64,000 nucleotides of DNA. It comes from a virus. The stretch spans positions 17,141 to 81,140 of the IMG/VR virus record IMGVR_UViG_3300020176_000010, one strand, 5' to 3'. The position numbers were made by a program, and so were the translations under genes. The notes below the pieces were generated by a model. The model worked only from the letters and a program-made list of their open reading frames with translations. It made no database searches and was not told the origin of the DNA. Below are positions 1 to 12,798 of this stretch, one piece after another (the first letter of the stretch is position 1; every line of letters starts with the position of its first letter).

Positions 1-1
1 G

Positions 2-163
2 CACAACAGAACCGCCAGCTCCGGCGACACGCACTACGCCGACCAGAAGGTTGGCCTGCTGCCACAGTGGGTCAGCGAAGAAGGTCGTCGCGATTCAACG
101 CCGGCCGAATACAATCAGCGCATCGAGGCGATGAAAGATCTGATCGCCTGCCTCCGCAACTAA
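2..163 (+). CDS. 3' end of a large polyvalent virion protein (partial)
   Basis: Open frame HNRTASSGDTHYADQKVGLLPQW...RIEAMKDLIACLRN* ending at TAA 161-163, 12 nt before the next gene. The YADQKVGLLPxW motif resembles phage polyvalent proteins. Confidence 0.7.
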   Translation, partial: HNRTASSGDTHYADQKVGLLPQWVSEEGRRDSTPAEYNQRIEAMKDLIACLRN

Positions 164-175
164 GGACCGAAGTAC

Positions 176-3100
176 ATGGCCCAGATTACGAACTGCCTGA
201 AGCTCATCTCCCGCATGCCTGAGAGCGACCAGGACGCACTGGTTTCTCGACTTGACGAGCTGCAGGCTCTCGGCGTTCCTGCGCAGCGCGCACAGGTGCA
301 GGCGGCCATCGACCTGATGTCGCGCCTGGAGCGCGAGGCAAACCCGCAGGGTATTCAACGCAGCGCAGCGCGCGACGTCACCGAGACGCCGGAGTTCCGC
401 AGCTGGTTTGGCGATAGCAAGGTGGTGGATGCCGATGGCAAGCCGCTTGTCGTGTACCACGCAACCACATCGAACATTAAAAAGTTCTCGACGAAGAAGT
501 CAGCAGGCGGCTTCTACTTCACGCCAAACGCCGAAGATGCATACCCAAGCAAGCGCGGCGAAATGACGTCCGAGCGCGGTCTCAATGTGATGCCAGCCTA
601 CCTGGCCATCAACAGCCCACTGCGGACCAGCGACCCAGCCGATTGGCACAGGCTTGACGCAGACCGACGCTCCAGCATCGAGGATCGCGGATTTGACGGC
701 GTCATTGTTGAAAACGAAGACGGGTCTGTGCGCGAGTACATCGCCTTCGAGCCCAGCCAGATCAAGTCCGCCATCGGAAACCGGGGCACCTTCGACCCGG
801 CCGACCCCGACATCACCCGCAGCGCATCCCGCCTGCCCGCCGGTGTTGAAATCATCGAGGTCGATGATGGCTTCGACGCCATGCAAGACGGCAAGCGCAT
901 CGGCCGCCTGCGCGACAACCTGCCACGCGGCGCCGCTGAGCGGCTGGACGAAAACGCCAGCGTCGACATCGTCAAGGTCGAGAACGAGTTCAAGGGCCAA
1001 GGTGTTGGCGCGGCCCTGTACGACGCCTTCTACGAGAAGCACGGCGGCCGCATCGCGCCATCCGGCAAGACCTCGCCAGAGGCCTGGGCCCTGTGGAAGC
1101 GCAAGTTCCCTCAGAAGGTGCAGGAGTTCGTGCAGGCCGAAGCTCAGCGCATCCGCGACGGCGCAGACCCATTCATGGTCATGCGCAACATCACCGACAA
1201 GGACGTAGCGCGCGACGTGGCCATTGCGGCGGGCGACAACGTTATCCGCAGCGTGGCGCGGAATGTGGTCGATAGCGCCGAGTTCAAGCGCTGGTTCGGC
1301 GACAGTAAGGTGGCGGATGCCGAGGGTAAGCCGCTGGTGGTGTATCACGGCAGCCGATACAACGCCGACATCAAGAGGTTCAGCGCAGCAAAGTCCGAGC
1401 AATCGGCGGCGGAGCGCGGAATCTACTTTACCGACAGCGCAGATCATGCAGATCAATACGCGAGCCAGTGGGGAGACGCCAGCCCAGAAGACGGCGGCTC
1501 AATTTACCCCGTCTATCTGAAGATTGAAAACCCCTACGTTTCCAATGCGTGGGAGTGGAACATGGGCACAGACATCACGCCAGCCCAAGCTCGCAAACGA
1601 GGGCATGATGGCTACGTGATTCAAAACCACGAGGGCGGCACAACCTACATCGCCTTCCGCCCCGAGCAGATCAAGAGCGCCATCGGCAACCGCGGCACGT
1701 TCGACCCATCCGACACCGACATCACGCGCAGCGCCGCGCGCCCCGAATTCTTCAGCCAGCTGCAGCGCTCCATCGAACAAGTGCCAGACCGCCTGGCCAC
1801 CATGTCTGCGCCACAGTGGAAGCTCTGGCTTGACGCCAATGCAGCCAAGCTGGGCGTAAAGAAGGACGAGATTGAGTGGTCAACAATCAAGGATTACTTG
1901 ACACTTCGTGGCAAGGACAAGGTCACGCGCGACGAGTTGGCGGCATACCTGTCTGACAGCGGTGTGCGGGTGCGGGAGGTTGTTCTTGGTGGCGGCGGCA
2001 CTGAAAAGGTAACCTTGGTTCGAGACTCAACCAGGCAGGACGCATGGGGAGAAGTCGTCGTCTATCGAAGCTCCGACGGGGCTTTCGTTGTCGAGAATGG
2101 AATTGGTGGGCAGAGCTGGTCGGTTCAGGATGCCGATTCATACGACAGCGACTACTCAGAAGACGATGGAAGCTACGCAGGAAGCTTCAGCTCACGCGAA
2201 GCTGTAGAGTCTTTCATCAATGGCCAGACGCAGGCCGCCGACCCATATTACTCCGGCGTTGGATCGAACCCAGCAACCAAGTATGGCGCCTATACCGTGC
2301 CCGGCGGCCCGCTCTCGCGCGATACTGAGATCCTGACCCGTGATGGCTGGATGCGGATGGATGAGGTTCAGATCGGCGACGAGGTCATGACGCGACGAGA
2401 TGAAGACGGCGGCCTGGAGTGGCAGCCAGTTGAAGCGCTGCCGACCGTTTACGCAGAAAAGCTATACCACTTCAAGAATCAATCGATCAACATGCGCGTC
2501 ACGCCATGCCACAAGATGGTAGTCAAGCGTCGGCGCAGATCAACGGGCGAGATCGTTCGCGTCACGGCAGAGCAGCTTTGGGGCATGTCGGAGATGGTAG
2601 CCCCACTCACGGGGTCATGGGGCGGCGGTGAATTCTCTGACCTGTTTGATCAAGATCCTGGAGATGTCGCTGAGCTGCTTGGGTGGTTTATTGCAGAAGG
2701 CCACTACAAGACGGAGGCGGATGGCAAGAAGTCAACCATCGGTATTGCTCAGTGCCGATCAGCAAACAGCGACAAGTGCGCCCGTATCGAGTCCCTATTG
2801 GGGAGGATGGGTATCGCCTGGAATTACTCTGGCGGTCAGTATTGGCTGGGTGTCAAGAAGATGTCTGCCGATCTGGTGCAGCTTCTGCATGCACAAGGGA
2901 AATCTGCTGAAAAGTATGTGCCTGGCTTCATGTTCAATGCGCCAGCCAGCGTCATTCAGCGCATGCTTGATGGCCTCTTGCTTGGCGATGGCTGCCTTGT
3001 AAAGCAGAATGGCCGAAAGCCTCGGTGGACATACCACACGAAATCCAAGCAGCTGGCAGATGATGTCCAGGTGCTTGCTCTTCTCGTTGGTAAACGTGGA

Positions 3101-3739
3101 TCCGTGTCTCGGCGCAAGACGGGTCTTTACACGGTCACCATCAATGATAAGCAGTGGGCGAGCATCGATGATGCGAAGCACGCGGTCGTCGATTACAACG
3201 ACATCGCGTACTGCGTCACTGTGAAGAATCACTCGATCTACGTTCGTACCAATGGCGTCGCAGCGTTCACTGGAAACTCCAACTACCGCGAGGTGCTGAT
3301 CACGTTGCCTCCGATTGGCCGGGTGAGATACACCGAGGAAAATGTCGTCGCCATCGATGACGCGGACGACCCAAATCGTTCCCGCTACTTCTGGCGCTTC
3401 AAGGTTCCAGGCAATGAGCTACAGATCTCCAAGCAGGTTTACCGCACCCAGGAGGAGGCGAAGGCCTACATCCTGAGCGAGAAGCAGCCAGAGCCTCCGG
3501 CCGACAAGAACTACCGCTCCAGCCACTGGGATGCGCTGAATGTTATCGCGCATATCAGGGTGGATGATAGGGTGGACTCCGATGGAAAAAAAGTGCTCTT
3601 TGTGAATGAGCTGCAAAGTGATTTTGGCCAGGACTATCGCAAGGCAAAAGAAGCAATCGAGAGCGCTGTTGACACCGATTTTATGGGCATCGTCGAGCGC
3701 ATGAAAAAAGCAGGCGTACTGGAGGTTGTTTGTGATTAA
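176..3739 (+). CDS. Large polyvalent (ejection/internal virion) protein: 2 ART-PolyVal-like ADP-ribosyltransferase domains, GNAT domain, intein-containing domain
   Basis: Two copies of FxxWFGDSKVxDAxGKPLVVYH..G(F/I)YFT..YL.I..P..G.DG..YIAF.P.QIKSAIGNRGTFDP; GNAT motif A VENEFKGQGVGAALY; YTVPGG/SNYRE..SHW..AHIR..LFVNELQSD domain. Confidence 0.85.
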   Translation: MAQITNCLKLISRMPESDQDALVSRLDELQALGVPAQRAQVQAAIDLMSRLEREANPQGIQRSAARDVTETPEFRSWFGDSKVVDADGKPLVVYHATTSNIKKFSTKKSAGGFYFTPNAEDAYPSKRGEMTSERGLNVMPAYLAINSPLRTSDPADWHRLDADRRSSIEDRGFDGVIVENEDGSVREYIAFEPSQIKSAIGNRGTFDPADPDITRSASRLPAGVEIIEVDDGFDAMQDGKRIGRLRDNLPRGAAERLDENASVDIVKVENEFKGQGVGAALYDAFYEKHGGRIAPSGKTSPEAWALWKRKFPQKVQEFVQAEAQRIRDGADPFMVMRNITDKDVARDVAIAAGDNVIRSVARNVVDSAEFKRWFGDSKVADAEGKPLVVYHGSRYNADIKRFSAAKSEQSAAERGIYFTDSADHADQYASQWGDASPEDGGSIYPVYLKIENPYVSNAWEWNMGTDITPAQARKRGHDGYVIQNHEGGTTYIAFRPEQIKSAIGNRGTFDPSDTDITRSAARPEFFSQLQRSIEQVPDRLATMSAPQWKLWLDANAAKLGVKKDEIEWSTIKDYLTLRGKDKVTRDELAAYLSDSGVRVREVVLGGGGTEKVTLVRDSTRQDAWGEVVVYRSSDGAFVVENGIGGQSWSVQDADSYDSDYSEDDGSYAGSFSSREAVESFINGQTQAADPYYSGVGSNPATKYGAYTVPGGPLSRDTEILTRDGWMRMDEVQIGDEVMTRRDEDGGLEWQPVEALPTVYAEKLYHFKNQSINMRVTPCHKMVVKRRRRSTGEIVRVTAEQLWGMSEMVAPLTGSWGGGEFSDLFDQDPGDVAELLGWFIAEGHYKTEADGKKSTIGIAQCRSANSDKCARIESLLGRMGIAWNYSGGQYWLGVKKMSADLVQLLHAQGKSAEKYVPGFMFNAPASVIQRMLDGLLLGDGCLVKQNGRKPRWTYHTKSKQLADDVQVLALLVGKRGSVSRRKTGLYTVTINDKQWASIDDAKHAVVDYNDIAYCVTVKNHSIYVRTNGVAAFTGNSNYREVLITLPPIGRVRYTEENVVAIDDADDPNRSRYFWRFKVPGNELQISKQVYRTQEEAKAYILSEKQPEPPADKNYRSSHWDALNVIAHIRVDDRVDSDGKKVLFVNELQSDFGQDYRKAKEAIESAVDTDFMGIVERMKKAGVLEVVCD
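2309..3277 (+). mobile_element. Intein (323 aa) with LAGLIDADG endonuclease and non-canonical Pro1
   Basis: Block A PLSRDTEILTRDGW, block B VTPCH, LAGLIDADG motifs LLGWFIAEG and MLDGLLLGDG, block F AYCVTV, C-terminal FTGN|S. Removal restores YTVPGG-SNYREVLITLP. Confidence 0.9.
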
Positions 3740-4367
3740 GACCTTCTATGTTTACAGGCACTACCACACCGACAGCGGACTCCCATTTTATGTTGGCAAG
3801 GGGACCAGACTATCCAAGAGTGACGGCTATCGCAGGGCTTTTGATGTGCATCGAAGGAAGGCCTCATGGAAAAGCGCGTCCGCAAAGCACGGCCTAGTGG
3901 TAGAGGTTGTGGCCGAGTTCTTTGCTGAGGCGGATGCTCTTGCGTTTGAGGCCGATTTGATAGCTATGCATGGTCGCCGGGATCTTTGTGCTGGCACGCT
4001 CATAAATCACACCGATGGGGGTGAGGGGTGCTCTGGGTTTAAGCACAAGCCGGAGTCAATCGAGCGCATTCGGATGGCAAGCCAAGGGCGCCGCCTTGGC
4101 GATGCGTCACGCCGCAGAATCTCCGATGCGCTAACCGGTAGTCGGCACCCTGGCTACGGCCGCCGGCAGTCGGCAGAAACGTCCGAGCGAAAAAGGGTGG
4201 CGATGCTAGGTAAAAACTTAAATGGTCGCTCTGTGCTGGATCGCTCAACAGGCGCTGTGTACAAATCAGTTCTTGCGGCATCAAGAGCAACAGGAATACC
4301 GGCACGAACACTCGCCAACTATCTGCATGGCGAGAGGAAGAATAGAACAGAAATGGAGTTCGCATAA
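3732..4367 (+). CDS. Free-standing GIY-YIG-type homing endonuclease with NUMOD-like DNA-binding repeats
   Basis: FYVYRH..FYVGKG..R..EADALAFEADLI..LINHTDGGEG, then NUMOD3-like and terminal HTH-like segments. GTG start at 3732 after GGAGG; overlaps both neighbours. Confidence 0.85.
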   Translation: MIKTFYVYRHYHTDSGLPFYVGKGTRLSKSDGYRRAFDVHRRKASWKSASAKHGLVVEVVAEFFAEADALAFEADLIAMHGRRDLCAGTLINHTDGGEGCSGFKHKPESIERIRMASQGRRLGDASRRRISDALTGSRHPGYGRRQSAETSERKRVAMLGKNLNGRSVLDRSTGAVYKSVLAASRATGIPARTLANYLHGERKNRTEMEFA

Positions 4368-7300
4368 TGGCCTGCCGATACACCTACCAGGGCAAGACCT
4401 ACGAGGCCCACGAATTCGACGACGTGCTGCGCGCTATGGCGCCAATGGATGCGGAGAAGTTCATGCCTACCGTGAAGAGCATTCCATCAGCGCCACTGAT
4501 CTCCGACACCAAGGCCTGGGCCGGCCTCGCCCTGAAGCGCGCCATCATGATGGCCGTGGAGGAGGGGCACGACAAGATCGCTTTGATCACCGGGCAGCAG
4601 GCCGCGGATCTCTATGACCTGAGCAAGCAGATCAGCAGGGTCGAGTTCTCGGACGCCAGCAGCGGAGGCGTCAGTGATGCCAACCTTGGCGCGCCAGATG
4701 GATCTGGGAATCTGTCGGCATTCGACCTTGACGGCAAGCGTGTCATCGACACCTATGTCAGCGCCGACAAGATCGAGGACTATGTTGGCAAGGAGGTTGC
4801 GCGCAAACTACTCGAATCCGAGCCAAGGGCCGTCCGCGCCGCCGGAGTTGGCCTGCGTCGCCGCTCCCTTGATGGCCTAGACCTCAAGGTCGGTGGCGAA
4901 GGCATGCGCGCCTTCTACGACCAGATCATCCCCCAGGTGGCGCGCGACGTGCTGAAGAGGCTGGGCGGCGGGCAACTGGCCACAGCGAAAATCACAACCG
5001 ACAAGAATGGCTGGCACATCACGCCACCCAGCCAGACGGCCAGCGGAAAGTGGATGGTCAAGAGCAGCGACTACAACTCCGTCGGCCTCAAGTTCGACAC
5101 AGAGGCCGAGGCGCGCGCCGCCCTGGCCGAGAAGCAGGAAACGAGCGAGCAGGTTTCGCTCGACATCACGGACTCCATGCGCGAGAAGGTGGCCTCCGGC
5201 GTGCCGCTGTTCAGCCGCCGCCGTGGCTGGGATGCATTCCCTGACGCGATCATCGCGACACCGCCGTCCACACAATCAAGCGACCCATCGTACGCAGCAG
5301 CCAAGGGCGGCGACATGAAGGCCGCGCTCGAGCTCGTGGACCGCGTGATGCCCGATGACATCGAGCAGCGCGTGCGCGCAACCATTGGTGATGCCAAGCC
5401 TATCGTTGCCGCCGTGCACGCCGAAGAGGCCGCCGGCCGCAACAAGATCCCCTTGGCCACCGCCTTCGTGCTCGGAGAGCGCATGGGTCTGCAGGTCGAC
5501 GAGAAGCTGGTTCAGGCATCACGCGCCAAGCGCACCGGCTCCGACGGCATGGCCCGCCTCGGCGTGCAGCCAGAGTTTGCCGGCGAAGTGGAGCGCGACG
5601 CAGACTACCTGCTGGTCGATGACACCCTGGCCCAGGGCGGCACGCTGGCGCAGCTCAAGACCCACATCGAGGACAACGGCGGCCGCGTCGTGGGGGTATT
5701 CGCGCTGAGCGGCAAGCAATACTCTGCTAAGATTTCCCTTGATAATGCAACACTTAATGATGTCAGGGCGAAGTATGGATCGATCGAAGACTGGTGGAAA
5801 GGCGAGCTCGGCTACGGCTTCGAAGGCCTCACACAGTCCGAGGCCCGCTACATGCTCAACTCCGGGCTTTCGCCTGAAGCCCTGCGAGATCGAGTCGCTG
5901 CAGCACGACAAGCGGCTGGCGCTGGAGATGGCGCGCAGCGTTCGGAAAGCGTTGGCGATCAAGAAGTAGTACGCAGCATGCCGCGCGTTCCTGGTTTGAA
6001 CGCCGGGCCTGTCGAGAGCACGACAGGAGACTATGGCCGCGAGTACACGCCGCAGCAGTTGGCCATGTTCAAGAACACCGGCCGCACCACGCAGAAGCCG
6101 TCCCTCGTTGAGCGCCTAAAAGAGGCTCGCAAAGACTTGGGCAAGAAGATGGCCCAAGGCATCGTCGATCAATTCCGCCCGCTGCGCGATCTCGGCGGCA
6201 ACGCCTACACGCTGGCCCGCTTGTCAAAGGGCGCGGCCGGCGCGTTCGAGGCGCTGCTTGGCCACGGCAAACTGAAGATCGTCGATGGAGCCTACGACGC
6301 AGACACCAGCGGCGGCTTCATTGACACCGTCGGCAAACCCCTTGGCCGCGAGATCGAAGACTTCATGTGGTGGGTAGCCGCCAACCGCGCGGACAGCCTT
6401 TCTCTGCAGGACCGCGAGAACCTCTTCACTGACGACGACATTGCCGCGGGCAAATCGCTGGCAGACGGAGACCTCGAGTTCGACTACCTCCTGCAGAGCG
6501 GCGCAACAACGCGCGACCGCAAGGCCGCCTACGAGGACTCGCTGAAGAAGTTCAACGCGTTTGGCAAGAATGTGCTGGACATCGCCGAGGAGAGCGGACT
6601 GATCGATGGAGAGAGCCGCAAGCTGTGGGAGAGTGAGTTCTACGTGCCGTTCTACCGCGTGAGCGAAGAGGATGGCTCATTCATTGGCGCAAAGATCAAG
6701 GGCGGCCTGGCTCGCCAGCGCGCGTTCCACGAGCTCAAAGGCGGAAGCCAGAAGCTGAACAGCGACCTGCTGGCGAACACCATGCGCAACTGGGCGCACC
6801 TGATCGACGCGTCTGCGAAGAACCGCGCAGCCAAGGCGACGCTTGAGTCTGCGCAGAATGTCGGCATCGCGCTTGAGGCTGACGCTGAGACCGTACGCCA
6901 GCTCGGAAAGTCGATGGGCGGCAAGGGTGGCACCGTTTGGTTCATGGACGGCGGCCAGCAGCGCCACTTCCTGGTTGGCGACCCATACGTGCTCGAGGCA
7001 ATCAATAGCCTGGAGTACGCCGGCCTGCGCGGCCCACTGATGGACGCCCTTTCCACAATGAAGCACTGGCTGACCGTCGGCGTCACGGCGTCGCCAGCGT
7101 TCAAGATCCGCAACTTGATCCGCGACTCGATTCAGGCCATCAGCTTGAGCGGCCTGAGCTACAACCCGGTGACCAACCTGGTTGAGGGCTACAAGGCCAC
7201 AGATCGAGCAAGCCAGGACTACGTCTCTACGCTGGCATCTGGCGGCCTGATTCGCTTTGGCTCCATGCTGGAAGACAGCGCATCAGAGCGCGTACGGAGG

Positions 7301-8572
7301 CTTGTGAAGAAGGGCGTCGATGGCAACACCATCCTGGACAGCGAGAGCAAGGTGCAGGCCTTCTATGGGAAGTACCTTGAGCCAGCGATTGAGGCCTACC
7401 AAGAGATCGGCAACCGCGGGGAGGAGATCAACCGCGCCTCGCTGTACAAGCAGCTGCGCGCAAAGGGCGTAAGTCATGCGGAGGCATCCCTGATGGCGCG
7501 CGACCTTATGGACTTCAGCATGCAGGGAACGTGGACCAGCATTCGGTTCCTGACCCAGGTTGTGCCGTTCATGAACGCCCGCCTGCAGGGTATGTACAAG
7601 CTGGGCCGTGGAGCCATGGAGGATCCTCGTCGATTCGCCCTGGTTACCGGCGCCGTGGCACTCATGTCTATCTCGCTGCTGGCGGCCTACGGCGATGACG
7701 ACGACTGGAAAAAGCGCGAGGACTGGGATCGCGATGGATTCTGGTGGTTCAAGTTCGGCGGCACAGCATTCCGCATTCCGAAGCCATTCGAAATTGGCGC
7801 CATCGGCAGCCTTGCCGAGCGTGGAGTTGAGCTCTTCACCAACGACGAGTTCACCGCAAAGCGCTTCGGCAGCCGGGTGCTCCACCTGCTTGGCGACAAC
7901 CTGGCCATGAACCCAATTCCGCAAGCTGTGAAGCCAATGCTGGACATCTACGCCAACAAGGACAGCTTCTCCGGCAGGCCGATCGAGTCGATGGGCATGG
8001 AGCGCCTGCAGTCCGAGTACCGCTACAACGTGCACACAAGCATGATCGCCAGGGGCGCCAGCTCCGCGCTGAATGCGGCAACGCGCACCGTTGGCGCGGA
8101 GGCCCTCAGCCCGGTGCAGATCGACTCACTGATCCGCGGATACTTTGGATGGCTTGGAACCTTTGTGGTTGCAGGAGCGGATATGGCAGTGCGCCCACTC
8201 ACTGACGAGCCAGCACGCCCACAGGCCGATTACCTGAAGGTGGTGTCACAGGGTTTCTTGAAGACCTTGCCAGAGCCTGGCTCAAAGTACGTGAGCGCCA
8301 TGTACGACCAGGCAAAGGTAATCGAGCAGGCCTACGCCACGCACCGGCAGATGGTCAAAGAGGGCAAGGTCGACGAGGCGCGCGAGTTCGCGGCCGAGAA
8401 CAAAGATCTGCTGGAGCGCCACCGCAGGATCGAGGGCGTCAAAGAGGCCCAGTCCAAGATCAACAAGCGCGTGCGCGAGATCGAGCTCAGCGACATGGAC
8501 CCAGCTCGCAAGGCCGAGGAGATCCAAAAGCTGCGCGATCAGTCGGGCAAGATCGCTCGGAAGGTTTACTGA
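4367..8572 (+). CDS. Large polyvalent ejection protein: second half of the split domain, PRTase domain, C-terminal LPD38-like region
   Basis: PSAP..W..LALKRAIMMAVEEGHDKIALITGQQAADLYDLSKQ; PRPP-binding loop YLLVDDTLAQGGTL; FRIPKPFEIG motif and hydrophobic helix near the C-terminus. Confidence 0.85.
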   Translation: MACRYTYQGKTYEAHEFDDVLRAMAPMDAEKFMPTVKSIPSAPLISDTKAWAGLALKRAIMMAVEEGHDKIALITGQQAADLYDLSKQISRVEFSDASSGGVSDANLGAPDGSGNLSAFDLDGKRVIDTYVSADKIEDYVGKEVARKLLESEPRAVRAAGVGLRRRSLDGLDLKVGGEGMRAFYDQIIPQVARDVLKRLGGGQLATAKITTDKNGWHITPPSQTASGKWMVKSSDYNSVGLKFDTEAEARAALAEKQETSEQVSLDITDSMREKVASGVPLFSRRRGWDAFPDAIIATPPSTQSSDPSYAAAKGGDMKAALELVDRVMPDDIEQRVRATIGDAKPIVAAVHAEEAAGRNKIPLATAFVLGERMGLQVDEKLVQASRAKRTGSDGMARLGVQPEFAGEVERDADYLLVDDTLAQGGTLAQLKTHIEDNGGRVVGVFALSGKQYSAKISLDNATLNDVRAKYGSIEDWWKGELGYGFEGLTQSEARYMLNSGLSPEALRDRVAAARQAAGAGDGAQRSESVGDQEVVRSMPRVPGLNAGPVESTTGDYGREYTPQQLAMFKNTGRTTQKPSLVERLKEARKDLGKKMAQGIVDQFRPLRDLGGNAYTLARLSKGAAGAFEALLGHGKLKIVDGAYDADTSGGFIDTVGKPLGREIEDFMWWVAANRADSLSLQDRENLFTDDDIAAGKSLADGDLEFDYLLQSGATTRDRKAAYEDSLKKFNAFGKNVLDIAEESGLIDGESRKLWESEFYVPFYRVSEEDGSFIGAKIKGGLARQRAFHELKGGSQKLNSDLLANTMRNWAHLIDASAKNRAAKATLESAQNVGIALEADAETVRQLGKSMGGKGGTVWFMDGGQQRHFLVGDPYVLEAINSLEYAGLRGPLMDALSTMKHWLTVGVTASPAFKIRNLIRDSIQAISLSGLSYNPVTNLVEGYKATDRASQDYVSTLASGGLIRFGSMLEDSASERVRRLVKKGVDGNTILDSESKVQAFYGKYLEPAIEAYQEIGNRGEEINRASLYKQLRAKGVSHAEASLMARDLMDFSMQGTWTSIRFLTQVVPFMNARLQGMYKLGRGAMEDPRRFALVTGAVALMSISLLAAYGDDDDWKKREDWDRDGFWWFKFGGTAFRIPKPFEIGAIGSLAERGVELFTNDEFTAKRFGSRVLHLLGDNLAMNPIPQAVKPMLDIYANKDSFSGRPIESMGMERLQSEYRYNVHTSMIARGASSALNAATRTVGAEALSPVQIDSLIRGYFGWLGTFVVAGADMAVRPLTDEPARPQADYLKVVSQGFLKTLPEPGSKYVSAMYDQAKVIEQAYATHRQMVKEGKVDEAREFAAENKDLLERHRRIEGVKEAQSKINKRVREIELSDMDPARKAEEIQKLRDQSGKIARKVY

Positions 8573-8775
8573 CAGCACGGGGCTGTGATGGCCCCGTATC
8601 TGATTGCCTGGAGGATGGATCCAACGATCCATCCGGCAGCCCCGAGGCAAACCATCCAGACGACAGCCGTGCCAAACAAGTCCTTGATGCGAGCCTTTGT
8701 GGCACCGCCAAGGATTGCAAAAAGACCAAAGAAAGCGAGTAGTGCGAGCATTGCCGATTTTATAGAGGTCGGCAA
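8566..8775 (-). CDS. Small membrane protein
   Basis: 69 aa with two hydrophobic segments, convergent with the ejection gene. Confidence 0.5.
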   Translation of the reverse strand: MPTSIKSAMLALLAFFGLFAILGGATKARIKDLFGTAVVWMVCLGAAGWIVGSILQAIRYGAITAPCCQ

Positions 8776-8796
8776 TGCTTGAGTCTCTTTTCTGCG

Positions 8797-9012
8797 CTAA
8801 ATCGTGCAGAACTCGTGCAGCTGTCGCTTTTTTAAGACGTATGCCTCATGAGCCTTTTCTGGTGCCTCGTAGAAGCCTGCGTGGTGCTGCTTGCCATTCA
8901 GGTTCACCTTTGCTCCCCATGCGTTTCGCTGCGCAGACCAGTAGACGCCAAGCAGGCCCGATGCCTTGTTGTGCGACCACGCCTTCCGCGTGTTCTGCGC
9001 ATTCTGGGACTT
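8797..9012 (-). pseudogene. AP2-domain gene fragment interrupted by the IS
   Basis: KSQNAQN..SGLLGVYW..WGAKVNLNGKQHHAGFYEAPEKAHEAY is the AP2 tail typical of HNH-AP2 proteins; it begins exactly at the IS right end. Confidence 0.8.
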
Positions 9013-9029
9013 TTGACATCCTCTCCGGC

Positions 9030-10103
9030 CTAAACGCCGGAGATTCCTTCTGCAAGACGGCGATGTCCCGCCGCGAGAATGTTTTTTGCTGCATTCACGT
9101 CCCGGTCGTGTACCGCGCCGCAGTCGCTGCAAACCCATTCTCTTATTCGCAAACCTGCTCTACCTTTCGGACTGCTGGCGGGTATGGCCCCGCAGCACGA
9201 ACAAGTCTGGGTGGTGTAGCTTTCGTTGACTACCTCGAAGACGATACCGGCCTGCTGGCTCTTGTATTCCAACATCGTCTTCAAACTGGCCCAGCCCGCA
9301 TCCAGCGTGCTCTTGGCCATCTTGGTTTTGACCAGCTTGGCGCTGGCCACGTCGCCCACGAAGATGGCGGCGTTGTTTTTCACAAGGTTCGTGGTGAACT
9401 TATGGATTGCATCCTTGCGGCGATTCGCAATCTTGGCGTGTATCGCCTTGACGCGCTTTTTCTTCCGCGCCCGTTGCGCGACCGCCAGATGCGGCTCAAG
9501 CTCACGGAACCACCGTCCTTGCAGCTTGTCGCCGTCGCTTGTGGTGGCGCACTCTTTCAGACCCAAATCGATGCCAACAGCCGATGCCCCCTGGCTGGGA
9601 AGAGCCTCGACCTCGACGGCAACATTGAAATACCAGCGCCCACGGCTGTCTTCGTTGAACGATCCGGCTCGCAGCTCAAAGCGGCTCAGGCCATAGCTGT
9701 CCCACAGGCTGAATTTGTGCCCACCAAACTGGACTTGGCCCGACTTGTACTTGGCGTGCCCGCCCTTGAATGGAATCCAGCCAAGCGAATACTTGGGCGA
9801 CTTCGGGTTGCTGACGCGCCAGTTGAGGCGGGTCTTCTTGAACTGCTTGCGGCGTGTGGCGTACTCCACGCACACCAGTTGCACTGTGCCGCTGCCGACC
9901 GTAACGCCATCGCACCTGCTGTAGCCGGCGGTGAGCTTCTGTAGGTCGTAGGCGCTCAGCCACTTGCCACGCTCACGGATGGCGCGGCTGCTGGTTTCGT
10001 TGGCGAAGTTGAACACCTGATTCACGTCGCGCGCCATGCGCCGAAGCACACTGGCGTGCTTGTCCTTGATGCGAATCTTGAGTGTCTTCACTGCCGTCTG
10101 CAT
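9030..10103 (-). CDS. tnpB: TnpB RNA-guided endonuclease
   Basis: MQTAVKTLKIRIK start; RuvC-I VGIDLG; Zn finger TCSCCG..WVCSDCG; RuvC-III DRDVNAAKNI. Confidence 0.95.
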   Translation of the reverse strand: MQTAVKTLKIRIKDKHASVLRRMARDVNQVFNFANETSSRAIRERGKWLSAYDLQKLTAGYSRCDGVTVGSGTVQLVCVEYATRRKQFKKTRLNWRVSNPKSPKYSLGWIPFKGGHAKYKSGQVQFGGHKFSLWDSYGLSRFELRAGSFNEDSRGRWYFNVAVEVEALPSQGASAVGIDLGLKECATTSDGDKLQGRWFRELEPHLAVAQRARKKKRVKAIHAKIANRRKDAIHKFTTNLVKNNAAIFVGDVASAKLVKTKMAKSTLDAGWASLKTMLEYKSQQAGIVFEVVNESYTTQTCSCCGAIPASSPKGRAGLRIREWVCSDCGAVHDRDVNAAKNILAAGHRRLAEGISGV

Positions 10104-10109
10104 GGCGTT

Positions 10110-10161
10110 ATTGTGGCACGAAAATACGACGCTTGCAATCTGTTCTCGTGCCACGGATAAT
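10110..10161. promoter_or_regulatory. Bidirectional sigma70-type promoter with inverted operator pair
   Basis: Palindromic TTGCAA (10133-10138) lies 17 bp from GATAAT (+) and 17 bp from CACAAT (-). Inverted repeat GTGGCACGA (10113-10121) / TCGTGCCAC (10146-10154). Confidence 0.7.
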
Positions 10162-10167
10162 TCGGGC

Positions 10168-10329
10168 ATGGAAGAACGAAAAAAGACCGGGCGCCCGCCT
10201 GTCGCGCCGGATAAGGAATTGGTGCATGGCACGCTGCGGCTCACGCGCTCGCAGTGGGAAAAGGTTCGCATAGCTGGTGTTCCTGCACTACGGCTGCTGA
10301 TTGATCGATGGCGCCCGAAGAAGCCCTGA
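10168..10329 (+). CDS. Small putative ribbon-helix-helix DNA-binding protein inside the IS
   Basis: MEERKKTGRPP..HGTLRLTRSQWEKVRIAGVPALRLLIDRW, 53 aa, divergent from tnpB. Confidence 0.7.
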   Translation: MEERKKTGRPPVAPDKELVHGTLRLTRSQWEKVRIAGVPALRLLIDRWRPKKP

Positions 10330-10386
10330 CGGGCTTCGCGCTTTCCTTCCCCGGCCTGAAGGCCGAGGCTTGACGCGCATTCTTGG

Positions 10387-10953
10387 TCACGGATGCGGGT
10401 CATACACAAAGTCCTGCTTGCTCTTTGGCTCTTCTGATTTCAGGTGGCGCTCGATCTTCGCGGTGGCTGTGATGTGCATTCCAGACATGTAGCCATTAAT
10501 GCTCACGGGGTGTACTGTGATCAGCTTTTGCGAGTCGATGAAGTAGGCCTGTACGCCTCCTTGCGTGATGATATTCAGCCGACCAAACAGGTCGCCAGGC
10601 CCCCACCCCGCGGTGCCGAGATACTGGGTGATAGTGTCGCGAAGCGCTTCGTCAATCTGGCGCGCGATGCGCATGCCGAGCTGACTTGATATCTCATTGC
10701 TGACGTCGACAATACCCCGCGAATTTGGGACGCTCTCGACGCGGAATACTTCAATACCAAGACCCGCCGCGTACCCCAGAACCCCCTCAACAGCGCGCTG
10801 TTCCATGCCCTGCTGAAAAAGAAGAAGCGTCGCGCCGCGGCAGCCGGCCATATCGGATGGCACTCGCACCATTCGGTATTTCTGTATAAACATCTTCTGC
10901 GCAAACATTTCTGCAGTAATCGTGTTCCGCGCGCAAATCAAAAGCTGACTCAT
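10387..10953 (-). CDS. Hypothetical phage protein
   Basis: 188-aa ORF in a coupled operon; its TGA stop is part of the IS target TGAC. Confidence 0.65.
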   Translation of the reverse strand: MSQLLICARNTITAEMFAQKMFIQKYRMVRVPSDMAGCRGATLLLFQQGMEQRAVEGVLGYAAGLGIEVFRVESVPNSRGIVDVSNEISSQLGMRIARQIDEALRDTITQYLGTAGWGPGDLFGRLNIITQGGVQAYFIDSQKLITVHPVSINGYMSGMHITATAKIERHLKSEEPKSKQDFVYDPHP

Positions 10954-11246
10954 AAAACCACTCCTTCACTCCATGCGGCCACGTATTCAGCGCCGCGAAT
11001 GCTGTCCGTCCTGCGCACCATGCGCCACGCTGCGCGCCACGCCTTGCGTCTTGTCGGGTACATCTGCATCCAGCCCCAATGGCTGGTGATGCGATGGTCG
11101 TGCCCGTCGAAATAGTGCACAGCGCACCAGGTCTCCTTTGTCACGATGCACTCGTACACGTAGACCAGGTCCGCGTGCCCGCCATGGCCGCGGATCACAT
11201 CGAGCCGCCACCTTGTGTGGCCCTGCTTAATCCGGCGCCTTGTCAT
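10950..11246 (-). CDS. Hypothetical phage protein
   Basis: ATGA overlaps with both neighbours. Confidence 0.6.
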   Translation of the reverse strand: MTRRRIKQGHTRWRLDVIRGHGGHADLVYVYECIVTKETWCAVHYFDGHDHRITSHWGWMQMYPTRRKAWRAAWRMVRRTDSIRGAEYVAAWSEGVVL

Positions 11247-11839
11247 TTCGGCTGTATGCGAATACGCCGGTCATCGCCAAGCAGCCTGCGAATTTCATTG
11301 AATGCCACCATACGCTCCGATTCGACGTGCCTCGCAACCTTCAGTGCGACGTACCTGTTTGGCTTTGTTCTCAGCCGCTCCAGATCCTCCATGACGCCAA
11401 TGAGCTCAATGATCCTGTCTATCTTCTGGTAGTCGCTCTCGTTTCTGCCATCGAGCAGGGTTGACCTTTCGTTGCCAATCTTCTGCATGCGAGCTTCGAG
11501 CATCCTTGCCGCCTCCGCGTCAGCCTTCGCCTTATTCTTCGCGAGAAGCTCTTCGTTGCGCACGGCGGCTGGCGTCTTTGGCTTGGACTCCTGTGCAGAG
11601 GTCTCCTCTGGCGGGTTAAGAACCAGGGACCACACAATGCGTCCGCTGGCACTCTTTGAAGCCTCTACAACTCCGGCATCAAGTGCTACCTTCATTGCAT
11701 CAACCAGGTCTTGAGGCCGGTCGATGCAGAGAGCCTCCGCGAGATCCGGGCTTCGCATAGCGCAGTCGCACTCCCGCAGGTATGCAACCGCGCGGTGCGC
11801 GATGGTCCCTGGTTGCAGAATGTTTTCTCCAGTCGCCAT
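11243..11839 (-). CDS. Hypothetical protein with possible N-terminal winged HTH
   Basis: MRSPDLAEALCI..GRIVWSL; operon position. Confidence 0.6.
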   Translation of the reverse strand: MATGENILQPGTIAHRAVAYLRECDCAMRSPDLAEALCIDRPQDLVDAMKVALDAGVVEASKSASGRIVWSLVLNPPEETSAQESKPKTPAAVRNEELLAKNKAKADAEAARMLEARMQKIGNERSTLLDGRNESDYQKIDRIIELIGVMEDLERLRTKPNRYVALKVARHVESERMVAFNEIRRLLGDDRRIRIQPK

Positions 11840-11850
11840 TGCCTTAGCCC

Positions 11851-12798
11851 TTACGCTTGAGTGGATGCCGCAGCTTCAGCAGCGCTGGCTACGCCGCTTT
11901 CCGCCTCGCCCCCAAGAGCTTCGATCAGGTCTGGGATGAGCTTTACCAGCTCGCCTGTTGCAATCGCCACGTCAGTGTCAAAACCGCCGTCATCGACTTT
12001 AGCGCCCTCAAACACGGCGTCCAGGAACTGCAGCCTCTTCAGCTGACAGCCCTCGGTCAGCATGAACGAGACGCGGTCGCCCCAGGTCAGTGCCAGCTTG
12101 GTTGGCAGCTTGCCATGCTGGATGTGCTGCTGCACTTCGGCAATGTCCAGCGGGTGGCGGCCGTAGCGCACCACGGCCTTGCTTTCATCGCAGGCCTTCA
12201 GCTCACACTCGCGGTCAATGGTGAAGCTGTGCATCTCGTAGAGGTCGTCATCTCCGCCAGACAGCCAGTGCGCCATGGCGGCCTGCGGGCTTGTTTGCGT
12301 GCTGAGCAGCGACAGAGATAGACCGGGGATCGCATCAACCAATAGCGTCACGATCTCGTCGGCGCGGCTTTGGCTGGATGCATCAACCAGCAGTGTGCGC
12401 GCAGCAGGGTCGATCCACACCCAGGTGCTTGCCTGCTTCGTGAATGCGTACGGCAGCAGGTCGAGCAGAGCCTCTTCCTTGAGCTCCTTGGTCTCTTTGC
12501 GGCCAGGCTTGCGGCCAGTTTCTTTCTCGATGAGTGCGACCTTCTCCGCAACCTTGCGAGCCAGCACAGAGCCTGGCACAACCTTGGCCTCCGACATGAA
12601 GCGCAGGATCCACTGGCCAGCAACACTCTCAATGAGTGCTCCGTTCTTGTCGCCGCGCGGCGGAATCCACCCGTAGGACTTCTGCTGGGTTGCGCCGCAC
12701 TCCAGGAACGGAGCCTTGGCCAGAGAGCTCTCGATGGCGCTTAGGTCATCGCCCACAAGACTGTTGGCGATGCGATAAATGATTGCTTGTTTGAACAC
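11851..12798 (-). CDS. rdgC: Recombination-associated protein RdgC
   Basis: MFKQAIIYRI..SYGWIPPRG..LLDLLPYAF..GKLPTKLALTWGDRVSFMLTE..LIEALGGE. Confidence 0.95.
   Translation of the reverse strand: MFKQAIIYRIANSLVGDDLSAIESSLAKAPFLECGATQQKSYGWIPPRGDKNGALIESVAGQWILRFMSEAKVVPGSVLARKVAEKVALIEKETGRKPGRKETKELKEEALLDLLPYAFTKQASTWVWIDPAARTLLVDASSQSRADEIVTLLVDAIPGLSLSLLSTQTSPQAAMAHWLSGGDDDLYEMHSFTIDRECELKACDESKAVVRYGRHPLDIAEVQQHIQHGKLPTKLALTWGDRVSFMLTEGCQLKRLQFLDAVFEGAKVDDGGFDTDVAIATGELVKLIPDLIEALGGEAESGVASAAEAAASTQA

What the first reader, a model, noticed from the sequence alone, without database searches (positions are those of the whole stretch)
2..8572. Head-to-tail terminal cysteines may chain three ejection proteins together
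Seen: the upstream gene ends ...KDLIACLRN* and the next starts MAQITNCL; that protein ends ...AGVLEVVCD* and the third starts MACRYTY. After intein removal, the 864-aa middle protein has exactly two Cys (residue 7 and the penultimate residue). The 1401-aa third protein has exactly one Cys (residue 3) and none at its C-terminus, as expected for the end of a chain. The two junctions have different flavours (amphipathic helices vs beta-strand-like), suggesting orthogonal docking pairs. Inference: paired docking peptides locked by inter-chain disulfides concatenate separately translated proteins so they are packaged or threaded into the host in order and released in the reducing cytoplasm. I do not know of a description of this system.
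Basis: partly seen in the sequence, partly recalled or inferred. Interest (0 to 1): 0.9.

Follow-up and report, generated by a model that had tools for sequence, protein, structure and literature searches.

The report
Cysteine-tipped connectors join split phage protein
A giant, otherwise cysteine-free protein that this phage probably packs into its particle and injects is encoded in three pieces, and each break is flanked by matched docking peptides carrying one cysteine each, a rule kept in many relatives and best explained by end-to-end disulfide links.

Summary
Three consecutive genes (3119, 1187 and 1401 aa) hold, outside an intein, only four cysteines in 5384 residues. All four lie within 7 residues of the two gene junctions.

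- A GIY-YIG/NUMOD3 homing-endonuclease gene lies between genes 2 and 3.
- Close relatives make genes 2+3, or all three, as one chain. Those chains lack the cysteines exactly where the chain is continuous.

The end peptides are conserved, portable modules:
- 56 of 56 split relatives of gene 3 start M-x-C-x-Y-T-Y.
- 14 of 14 split relatives of gene 2 end ...VLEVxC[D/E].
- 35 of 37 evaluable junctions pair the two.

Synonymous sites are close to the level of flanking segments, so selection acts on the peptides, not on the endonuclease's DNA target.

A published cryo-EM structure of cyanophage A4 shows the same geometry as a real disulfide, gp27 Cys1715 to gp26 Cys5. So the kind is known from one case, but I found no paper stating the general rule. 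Complex prediction gave only weak support. The disulfide, ordered threading and release on reduction remain inferred.

This scan has noted the same pattern on other genomes.

The parts
2..163 (+). 3' end of gene 1 (P0124, 3119 aa; whole gene at G000:C1:7944-17303), stop codon at 161-163. It has an N-terminal peptidoglycan hydrolase plus InPase and ART-PolyVal domains.
98..160 (+). Tail A connector (...TPAEYNQRIEAMKDLIACLRN). The only Cys of gene 1 (residue 3116) is the codon at 149-151. Unsplit relatives lack this peptide and have a short linker instead.
176..3739 (+). Gene 2 (P0002, 1187 aa): two ART-PolyVal domains, an intein, and the first half of a domain that continues in gene 3.
176..379 (+). 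Head A connector (about residues 1-68, MAQITNCLKLISRM...), predicted helical. The Cys7 codon is at 194-196.
2309..3277 (+). Intein of 323 aa (residues 712-1034) with a LAGLIDADG endonuclease domain. It holds all five internal Cys of gene 2 and is absent from relatives P0005 and P0017.
3632..3736 (+). Tail B connector (about residues 1153-1187, ...DFMGIVERMKKAGVLEVVCD): a long helix, then a terminal peptide that is unstructured on its own. The Cys1186 codon is at 3731-3733.
3732..4367 (+). Free-standing homing-endonuclease gene (P0004). The GIY-YIG-like N-terminus is my reading by eye; NUMOD3 and PHROG 'homing endonuclease' are tool matches. The likely start is GTG 3732, behind GGAGG at 3721-3725; the ORF listing gives TTG 3726. 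The start overlaps the end of gene 2. The stop TAA at 4365-4367 overlaps the ATG of gene 3.
4367..8572 (+). Gene 3 (P0003, 1401 aa): the second half of the split domain, a phosphoribosyltransferase-like region, and LPD38 at the C-terminal end.
4367..4480 (+). Head B connector (residues 1-38, MACRYTYQGKTYEAHEFDDVLRAM...): beta-hairpin 4-7/10-13, then helix 14-23. The Cys3 codon is at 4373-4375.
3671..4480 (+). Cassette (end of tail B + endonuclease gene + head B). This stretch has no counterpart in the unsplit close relative P0017, which carries a 73-residue linker in its place.

Best explanation
The three genes encode pieces of one polyvalent, virion-packed, injected protein that relatives make as one or two chains. 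Each break carries a matched pair of short connector peptides.
- Junction 1: a C-terminal helix ending ...ACLRN docks with a helical N-terminal head, MAQITNCL...
- Junction 2: a helix plus terminal strand, ...GVLEVVCD, docks with an N-terminal beta-hairpin plus helix, MACRYTYQGKTY...

The peptides dock non-covalently. The two lone cysteines, brought side by side at the chain ends, then form an inter-chain disulfide once the particle meets oxidising conditions. The pieces would become one almost linear thread in gene order. This is inferred, by analogy with cyanophage A4.

Junction 2 is also occupied by a homing-endonuclease gene. In this lineage, tail B, the endonuclease gene and head B behave as one inserted cassette that splits the gene without loss of function.

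Shown: the conservation, the co-occurrence with breaks, the portability and the cysteine depletion. Inferred: docking, the disulfide, threading in order, and release after reduction in the host cytoplasm.
For: Cysteine placement in this phage
- There are 4 Cys in 5384 extein residues, all at junction-facing ends. Other ORFs of the phage hold about 1.1% Cys.

Heads
- Of 119 homologues found through residues 1-300 of gene 3, 56 start at the same point with M[ATGS]C.YT[YF].GK. Cys3 (Cys4 in one) is invariant. 52 of the 56 have no other Cys.

Tails
- Of 17 hits to the last 148 residues of gene 2, 14 end in the tail module, and all 14 end ...xC[D/E].
- Ten of those 14 have exactly two Cys, one at each end.

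Pairs
- Among 46 unique head-motif loci, 37 could be evaluated. In 35 of them the upstream ORF has a Cys in its last 4 residues, against 10% of control ORFs.

Break versus continuity
- P0017 is 89% identical to gene 3 over 1378 positions. It is one chain of 2417 aa with Cys7 only.
- P0005 (2194 aa) is likewise one chain with Cys7 only.
- P0260 (4713 aa) spans all three genes, and P0154 and P0175 span junction 1. None of the three has any Cys. At junction 1 P0154 and P0175 join the same flanking domains through a short linker (P0260 runs on into a different domain).

Same chain layout elsewhere
- Independent contigs L128 and L211 have type A then type B junctions. L113 has two type B junctions.

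Selection on the peptides
- Head codons 1-25 show 76% amino-acid identity. Four-fold synonymous identity is only 0.40, against 0.31-0.37 in flanking segments.

Cysteine depletion in the family
- Cys makes up 0.066% and 0.035% of 195,801 and 351,516 residues in the two homologue sets.

Virion and injection context
- Neighbouring genes are internal-virion and tail genes. Gene 1 starts with a FlgJ-like peptidoglycan hydrolase.
- An LPD38 giant protein was found in phi24B virions by proteomics (preprint passages).

Published precedent
- In the A-4L record these are adjacent genes. Their only cysteines are exactly those two.
Against: - No disulfide, docking or virion content was measured for this phage.
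- Our proteins show no sequence similarity to any PDB chain of A4, so the precedent is an analogy.
- Two of the 37 evaluable junctions (L130, L138, both short contigs) show no terminal Cys upstream.
- Some type A pairs are separated by other genes (L161, L182). Adjacency is therefore not required and gene order need not be chain order.
- Virions assemble in a reducing cytoplasm, so any disulfide must form late.
- The AlphaFold2 models are of low to moderate confidence: mean pLDDT 70 for the head and 54 for gene 2.
Confidence: 0.6

Rival explanations
1. The peptides are docking connectors, but the cysteines do not form a disulfide. They bind a bridging metal ion, or serve some other thiol chemistry such as a thioester or ligation step.
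For: - Each side offers one Cys beside a free terminus and often an acidic residue (...CD at the tail end).
- Assembly takes place in the reducing cytoplasm.
- No distance or contact data were obtained.
Against: - Two structurally different connector types, helical and beta, share only the single Cys on each side. That fits a chemistry needing nothing but two thiols.
- The one solved case shows a disulfide.
- No further conserved His or Cys ligand is present: position 15 of head B varies among H, W, S, Y and F.
Confidence: 0.15
2. The conserved ends are only the footprint of the homing endonuclease, that is, its recognition site and flanks copied along by gene conversion, and have no role as protein.
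For: - 22 of the 36 junctions with a terminal Cys (including L089, which I judged spurious) hold an inserted gene, with a gap of 400 nt or more.
- 19 further unique inserted ORFs are homologues of this endonuclease.
- The whole cassette is missing from an 89%-identical relative.
Against: - Thirteen junctions have the same peptides with gaps of 100 nt or less and no inserted gene.
- Junction 1 has no endonuclease.
- Synonymous sites in the head are hardly more alike than in flanking segments (0.40 against 0.31-0.37), while amino-acid identity is 76%.
- The endonucleases are only 24-38% identical to each other, far less than the peptides.
Confidence: 0.04
3. The pieces are rejoined into one polypeptide or one mRNA by splicing or recoding: a group I intron, a split intein, or ribosomal bypassing.
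For: - A gene-endonuclease-gene layout resembles 'fractured genes' with split inteins (PMC2677866; search listing and abstract start only).
- From recall, it also resembles intron-borne GIY-YIG enzymes and the phage T4 gene 60 bypass.
Against: - No Rfam intron match was found in window 3000-5200 at E up to 1.
- The endonuclease gene overlaps both neighbours, leaving no room for an intron core.
- Tail B (35 aa) plus head B (38 aa) is too short for a Hint fold, and no Hint match lies there.
- The cysteines sit at the break, not at the would-be extein borders.
- Many junctions have no insert at all.
Confidence: 0.04
4. Chance or composition: these proteins avoid cysteine because they cross narrow channels and the oxidising periplasm, and the four that remain are accidents.
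For: The whole family is strongly depleted of Cys, as expected for proteins moved in an unfolded state (general knowledge).
Against: - The random-placement probability is about 7e-11.
- The Cys is invariant in 56 of 56 heads and 14 of 14 tails.
- Both cysteines are absent from the unsplit relatives examined at these two breaks.
Confidence: 0.01

Closest known systems
Cyanopodophage A4 (Anabaena phage A-4L) pre-ejectosome proteins gp27 and gp26 (PNAS 2025, PMC12002296)
   Same: - Two consecutive giant ejection-protein genes.
- The upstream protein's only Cys lies 3 residues from its C-end (1715 of 1717). The downstream protein's only Cys is residue 5.
- The C-terminal helix docks into the next protein, and cryo-EM shows the two Cys as a disulfide.
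- This matches the geometry of junction 1 here.
   Different: - No detectable sequence similarity to the proteins here.
- The passages I read treat the bond as a local stabiliser of one complex, not as a general, portable connector rule.
- That case has no beta-hairpin (type B) connector, no homing endonuclease and no link to gene fission.
- I could not see the SI figures (supplements closed).
Aeromonas phage Aeh1 nrdA-a / mobE / nrdA-b (Crona et al., NAR 2011, PMC3045599)
   Same: - A free-standing homing endonuclease has split a gene that is continuous in relatives.
- The new C- and N-terminal tails arose with the insertion and act as protein interaction domains that restore function without RNA or protein splicing (abstract and passages).
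   Different: - That is one enzyme in one phage.
- The tails promote dimerisation of heterodimers and are not reported as cysteine-tipped or as recurring at other sites.
- Here the same tail-head pair recurs in dozens of contigs, at different positions and also without any endonuclease.
Fractured genes: split inteins with a free-standing homing endonuclease between the halves (Dassa et al., NAR 2009, PMC2677866)
   Same: The gene order is N-piece, endonuclease gene, C-piece in phage-like metagenomic DNA (title and abstract start seen).
   Different: Rejoining there is by trans-splicing of a Hint domain. Here there is no Hint match in the ends and the peptides are too short.
Polyvalent proteins of phages and conjugative elements (Iyer et al., J Bacteriol 2017, PMC5512222)
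   Same: The genes carry that family's domains: ART-PolyVal, InPase and LPD38.
   Different: The paper's main text holds none of the words cysteine, disulfide, split, intein or homing. The connectors are not described there.
Docking domains of modular polyketide and non-ribosomal peptide synthases (recalled, not tested)
   Same: Short matched C- and N-terminal peptides, helical or beta-hairpin, order separately translated subunits head to tail.
   Different: The system is unrelated, the docking is non-covalent, and it is not linked to virion packaging or to lone cysteines.

Membership tests
Polyvalent proteins (Iyer et al. 2017) | Giant multidomain proteins of phages or plasmids carrying the family's signature domains (ART-PolyVal, LPD domains) | tested here: met
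   Pfam matches: ART-PolyVal twice in gene 2 (E 1.6e-49), LPD38 in gene 3 (E 1.1e-36), and InPase and ART-PolyVal in gene 1.
Polyvalent proteins (Iyer et al. 2017) | Packed in the virion and delivered into the host | not testable with these tools
   Context only: internal-virion and tail genes lie next door, and gene 1 has an N-terminal peptidoglycan hydrolase. The phi24B LPD38 protein was found in virions.
Disulfide-linked consecutive ejection proteins (cyanophage A4 gp27-gp26 type) | Upstream protein has a lone Cys within a few residues of its C-end; downstream protein has a lone Cys within a few residues of its N-end | tested here: met
   Cys3116 of 3119 pairs with Cys7, and Cys1186 of 1187 pairs with Cys3. 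A-4L has 1715 of 1717 and residue 5.
Disulfide-linked consecutive ejection proteins (cyanophage A4 gp27-gp26 type) | The two ends dock and the cysteines form a disulfide in the particle | not testable with these tools
   No structural or biochemical data exist for this phage.
Disulfide-linked consecutive ejection proteins (cyanophage A4 gp27-gp26 type) | Sequence homology to gp27 or gp26 | tested here: not met
   phmmer of all three proteins, and a profile of gene 2 relatives, against PDB sequences found no such chain.
Endonuclease-split gene reassembled by insertion-derived tails (Aeh1 nrdA type) | Gene continuous in relatives and split here by a free-standing homing-endonuclease gene | tested here: met
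   P0017 and P0005 are single chains across the break. The inserted ORF matches NUMOD3 and PHROG 314 'homing endonuclease'.
Endonuclease-split gene reassembled by insertion-derived tails (Aeh1 nrdA type) | New terminal tails are absent from continuous homologues | tested here: met
   Tail B and head B have no counterpart in P0017, which has a 73-residue linker. The head motif never occurs internally in the 260 proteins held.
Endonuclease-split gene reassembled by insertion-derived tails (Aeh1 nrdA type) | Tails required for function of the split protein | not testable with these tools
   This needs deletion mutants.
Split intein / fractured gene | Hint-fold halves flank the break, with a nucleophile at the first intein residue and at +1 of the C-extein | tested here: not met
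   The only Hint and LAGLIDADG matches lie in the internal intein at 712-1034. The ends are 35 and 38 aa, and their Cys lie at the break, not at the extein borders.
Group I intron carrying a GIY-YIG endonuclease | Intron core RNA structure around the endonuclease ORF | tested here: not met
   Rfam scan of window 3000-5200 at E up to 1 gave only a chance miRNA hit. The ORF overlaps both neighbouring genes.

The most novel reading that the evidence does not exclude
Phages own a small set of portable, cysteine-tipped connector pairs, at least one helical type and one beta-hairpin type. These let a giant injected protein be cut at any inter-domain linker and re-strung end to end by a disulfide. 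Cargo modules could then be swapped between phages like beads. One connector pair travels with a homing endonuclease as a self-neutralising gene-splitting cassette. That would be a third way, besides introns and inteins, for a selfish element to hide its insertion.
Probability: 0.4. Interest if true: 0.85.

Novelty: new variant of a known kind. Interest (0 to 1): 0.75.

Why it matters
If the links are real, they explain how podovirus-like phages pack and inject several thousand residues of cargo encoded in separate genes as one ordered thread. They also explain why these proteins are almost free of cysteine.

They would generalise a single bond seen in one cryo-EM map into a rule that covers many uncultured phages.

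The cassette at junction 2 would add a protein-level way, docking plus disulfide, by which a mobile endonuclease makes its insertion harmless.

The connector pairs could also serve as small orthogonal, redox-switchable protein-joining tags.

Tried and rejected
Readings I tested and set aside
- Group I intron around the endonuclease: no Rfam match.
- Split intein: no Hint match in the ends.
- Conservation caused by homing or gene conversion: synonymous sites in the head are only slightly more alike than in flanking segments.

Searches that gave little or nothing
- Homology of our proteins to solved A4 chains: none found.
- A cultured model phage for the type B connector: tblastn of the 45-aa head against the phage collection found nothing. 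The genome contigs pattern scan gave only three true hits, all in metagenome-assembled genomes (L242, L244, L249).
- Pseudomonas phage F116, the closest named relative of the ART domain: its giant gene p59 ends in a Cys-rich stretch that looks frameshifted, so I did not use it.
- Megablast of window 1-9000 against phages: only two 60-80 nt matches.
- Papers stating the general rule: none found. The library lacks most subscription journals, and supplements were closed, including the SI of the A4 paper, which may hold alignments of the two cysteines.

Complex prediction of junction 2
- I ran tail alignment A2 against residues 1-110 of head alignment A1.
- The verdict was 'weak support': ipSAE 0.44, best of 3 controls 0.01.
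- The three runs agreed in at least 82% of contacts, and the partner's pLDDT was at least 57.
- In the tool's calibration the mark was reached by 58 of 80 solved complexes and 2 of 110 mismatched pairs. At 0.60 or under, only 7 of those 80 solved complexes passed, as did both passing mismatches.
- No contacts were given. I do not count this as evidence either way.

Biases and dropped rows
- The adjacency tables contain many spurious ORFs from GC-rich DNA. The loci were partly chosen by the head motif, so I use both tables only as lists of examples.
- Rows dropped before the 35 of 37 count: 8 loci whose contig ends before the upstream partner (L086, L088, L093, L094, L124, L125, L142, L145), and L089, which is not a real head.

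Full report
WHAT IS THERE

The window is bases 17141-81140 of an 81,140-base virus record. The finding covers three consecutive plus-strand genes.

- Gene 1 starts upstream of the window (G000:C1:7944-17303, 3119 aa, P0124) and ends ...EAMKDLIACLRN at window 160, with its stop at 161-163.
- Gene 2 (window 176-3739, 1187 aa, P0002) starts MAQITNCLKLIS and ends ...MKKAGVLEVVCD.
- Gene 3 (window 4367-8572, 1401 aa, P0003) starts MACRYTYQGKTY.

- Gene 1 has one Cys, residue 3116.
- Gene 2 has Cys 7 and 1186, plus five inside a 323-aa LAGLIDADG intein at residues 712-1034.
- Gene 3 has one Cys, residue 3.

That makes four Cys in 5384 extein residues. Other ORFs of the same phage hold about 1.1% Cys, so about 60 would be expected. 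My simple random-placement probability for four Cys at the four facing ends is about 7e-11.

Between genes 2 and 3 lies a separate gene (window 3726/3732-4367, P0004).
- Its start overlaps the last codons of gene 2, behind a GGAGG.
- Its stop overlaps the ATG of gene 3.
- It matches NUMOD3 (Pfam) and PHROG 314 'homing endonuclease'.
- It has a GIY-YIG-like N-terminus, which is my reading by eye.
- Rfam finds no intron around it.

WHAT THE GENES ARE

- Pfam places ART-PolyVal (twice) in gene 2 and LPD38 in gene 3.
- Gene 1 has a glucosaminidase/FlgJ-like peptidoglycan hydrolase, InPase and ART-PolyVal.
- These are 'polyvalent proteins' in the sense of Iyer et al. 2017.
- The genes follow internal-virion and tail genes.
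- A preprint on phage phi24B found its LPD38 giant protein in virions by proteomics and proposes it as an ejection protein (passages).

That the three proteins here are packed and injected is therefore an inference from context.

THE PIECES ARE ONE PROTEIN IN RELATIVES

A search with residues 1-300 of gene 3 returned 119 homologues. They fall into two forms.

- Unsplit form. One chain contains both the end of gene 2 (...SSHWD...ELQSDWGQ) and the start of the conserved part of gene 3 (...APFVTDTKAW...), joined by a variable linker of roughly 20 to 130 residues.
- Split form. 56 proteins start exactly where gene 3 starts.

The closest unsplit relative, P0017 (2417 aa), gives the clearest comparison:
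- It is 89% identical to gene 3 over 1378 positions.
- It begins like gene 2.
- It has a 73-residue linker in place of tail B + endonuclease + head B.
- It has a single Cys, at residue 7.

P0005 (2194 aa) is the same kind.

Still larger relatives cover more of the set. P0260 (4713 aa) spans gene 1, gene 2 and gene 3 in one chain. P0154 (4793 aa) and P0175 (3756 aa) span junction 1. None of the three has any Cys.

At junction 1, P0154 and P0175 join the same flanking motifs...ADQKxGLxPxW... and ...TPEFKRWF..., through a short linker. Tail A and head A are absent.

So there are three natural states:
- one chain with no Cys;
- two chains with one Cys pair;
- three chains, as here, with two Cys pairs.

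THE END PEPTIDES ARE CONSERVED, MATCHED MODULES

Heads
- All 56 split homologues begin M[ATGS]C.YT[YF].GK.Y..EF..L.
- The Cys is invariant, and 52 of the 56 have no other Cys.

Tails
- Of 17 hits to the last 148 residues of gene 2, 14 end in the module DF.GIVERMKKAGVLEVxC[D/E].
- All 14 have the Cys at the penultimate residue.
- Ten of them are 'middle' pieces whose only two Cys sit at the two ends. Three have a Cys only at the C-end.

Pairs
- A pattern scan for the head in metagenome contigs, plus the viral contigs, gave 46 unique heads and 37 evaluable junctions.
- In 35 of them the upstream ORF has a Cys within its last four residues, against 10% of control ORFs.
- The exceptions are L130 and L138, both short contigs.

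Portability
- The same head and tail occur in AT-rich phages on unrelated flanking domains.
- They also occur at other positions within the same domain family (L083, L086).
- The head motif never occurs inside any of the 260 proteins held.

Junction 1 type
- 31 of 120 homologues of the end of gene 1 have a Cys within their last 12 residues. The common form ends ...LI.CL[KR]K; variants are ...LKKCMG, ...LKRCLG and ...ECLK.
- In 29 of the 31 it is the only Cys in 1,750-3,100 residues.
- 99 of the 120 have no internal Cys.
- 32 of the 63 unsplit-type homologues of genes 2/3 have a lone Cys at residues 4-9.
- Two relatives carry a type B tail at the junction-1 position (P0147, P0186).

Chains like the one here recur in independent contigs:
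- L128 and L211 have type A, then type B with an inserted gene.
- L113 has two type B junctions.
- L167 has a type A junction.
- L169 has a type B-like junction.
- In L161 and L182 the type A tail and head genes are separated by other genes.

PROTEIN-LEVEL SELECTION, NOT A DNA FOOTPRINT

Among 12 loci, head codons 1-25 are 76% identical in amino acids. Four-fold synonymous sites match at only 0.40, against 0.31-0.37 in neighbouring segments.

Thirteen junctions have the peptides with 100 nt or less between the genes. Twenty-two of the 36 with a terminal Cys, including L089 which I judged spurious, hold an inserted gene.

The inserted genes are of several kinds:
- 19 further unique ones are 24-38% identical homologues of P0004.
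- Two more look like GIY-YIG enzymes by eye.
- Four AT-rich loci hold a ferritin-like ORF instead.

Two readings fit, and both may be true. The conserved junction may be a favoured landing site. Or, as the P0017 comparison suggests for this lineage, tail B + endonuclease + head B may move as one cassette.

STRUCTURE

AlphaFold2 with an 18-row alignment gives head B as follows (mean pLDDT 70):
- a beta-hairpin, strands 4-7 and 10-13;
- then helix 14-23.

The whole of gene 2 was modelled at mean pLDDT 54, which is low. In that model:
- head A is helical (5-11, 16-31, 36-55);
- tail B is a long helix (1149-1178);
- the last nine residues are unstructured on their own.

This fits a terminal strand that needs a partner, but it does not prove it.

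HOW IT MOST LIKELY WORKS

- Shown: matched, portable, split-specific end peptides, each with one invariant Cys, in proteins otherwise purged of Cys.
- Inferred: the peptides dock. At junction 2 the tail strand probably lies beside the head hairpin, which would put Cys1186 next to Cys3. At junction 1 the docking would be helix to helix. The two thiols then oxidise to a disulfide in the finished particle, giving a nearly linear thread in the order gene 1, gene 2, gene 3. Reduction in the host cytoplasm would free the pieces.

The strongest outside support is the cryo-EM structure of cyanopodophage A4 (PMC12002296, passages read). [quoted passage not shown]

In the A-4L genome record these are adjacent genes of 1717 and 1114 aa. 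Their only cysteines are those two.

There is no sequence similarity between those proteins and ours. This is therefore a precedent for the mechanism, not proof of membership.

COMPARISON WITH WHAT IS KNOWN

The A4 bond is the closest known case for the link itself.

For junction 2, the closest case is Aeh1 nrdA-a/mobE/nrdA-b. There, tails created by an endonuclease insertion act as interaction domains (PMC3045599, abstract and passages).

'Fractured genes' share the gene order but rely on split inteins (PMC2677866, listing and abstract start). That feature was tested here and not met.

The founding paper on polyvalent proteins mentions none of cysteine, disulfide, split, intein or homing in its main text.

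My other searches found no statement of the general rule. The library is incomplete and supplements were closed.

Earlier notes of this same scan describe the same pattern on other genomes. They pointed me to the A4 paper, which I then read and checked. They are not independent evidence.

VERDICT

I rate this a new variant of a known kind. One disulfide of this geometry has been seen, and one endonuclease-made tail pair has been studied. I found nothing in print on the following:
- the portable two-type connector system;
- its strict coupling to gene breaks;
- its cassette form.

My confidence that these are docking connectors is about 0.75. My confidence in the full reading, including an inter-chain disulfide in the particle, is about 0.6.

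Noticed in passing
window 2309-3277: The intein in gene 2 (323 aa, with a LAGLIDADG domain) appears to begin with Pro (GG|PLSRDTEIL...) and to end ...FTGN|S. It lacks the usual Cys/Ser first residue and the penultimate His. The boundaries come from comparison with the intein-free relatives P0005 and P0017. Its class and activity are unknown.
   Followed up: partly
window 5336-5746 (gene 3 residues 324-460): There is a phosphoribosyltransferase-like region inside gene 3. It gives a weak match to hypoxanthine PRTase 4pfq (E 0.0018) and contains a YLLVDDTLAQGGT motif. PHROG 22413 covers residues 293-516.
   Followed up: no
L092, L132, L151, L133 (metagenome contigs), between the tail B and head B genes: In four AT-rich phage contigs the gene inserted at the type B junction is not an endonuclease. 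It is a 167-176 aa ORF that looks ferritin-like by eye (ELYAHNLY...ELGHY...). I ran no family search on it.
   Followed up: no
L161:3796 and 9662; L182:2296 and 6284: Here the type A tail gene and the type A head gene are separated by one to three other long genes, whose ends resemble each other (...DRNYV, ...DRGYSNP, ...DRVYAA). Connector partners therefore need not be neighbours.
   Followed up: partly
L083:8473-8850; L086: The same type B connector sits at other break points. In L083 it follows the WSGVKDYL domain and precedes ...GVPLFSR, skipping a whole domain. In L086 the head precedes the E.QSD motif. This suggests module shuffling at connectors.
   Followed up: partly
L238 (Pseudomonas phage F116, NC_006552) 6083-12472: The annotated 2129-aa 'methyltransferase' p59 starts and ends in Cys- and Arg-rich stretches that look like out-of-frame translation. 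The true ends of this giant gene may be misannotated.
   Followed up: no
window 1-64000: ARAGORN finds no tRNA or tmRNA gene in the window.
   Followed up: yes
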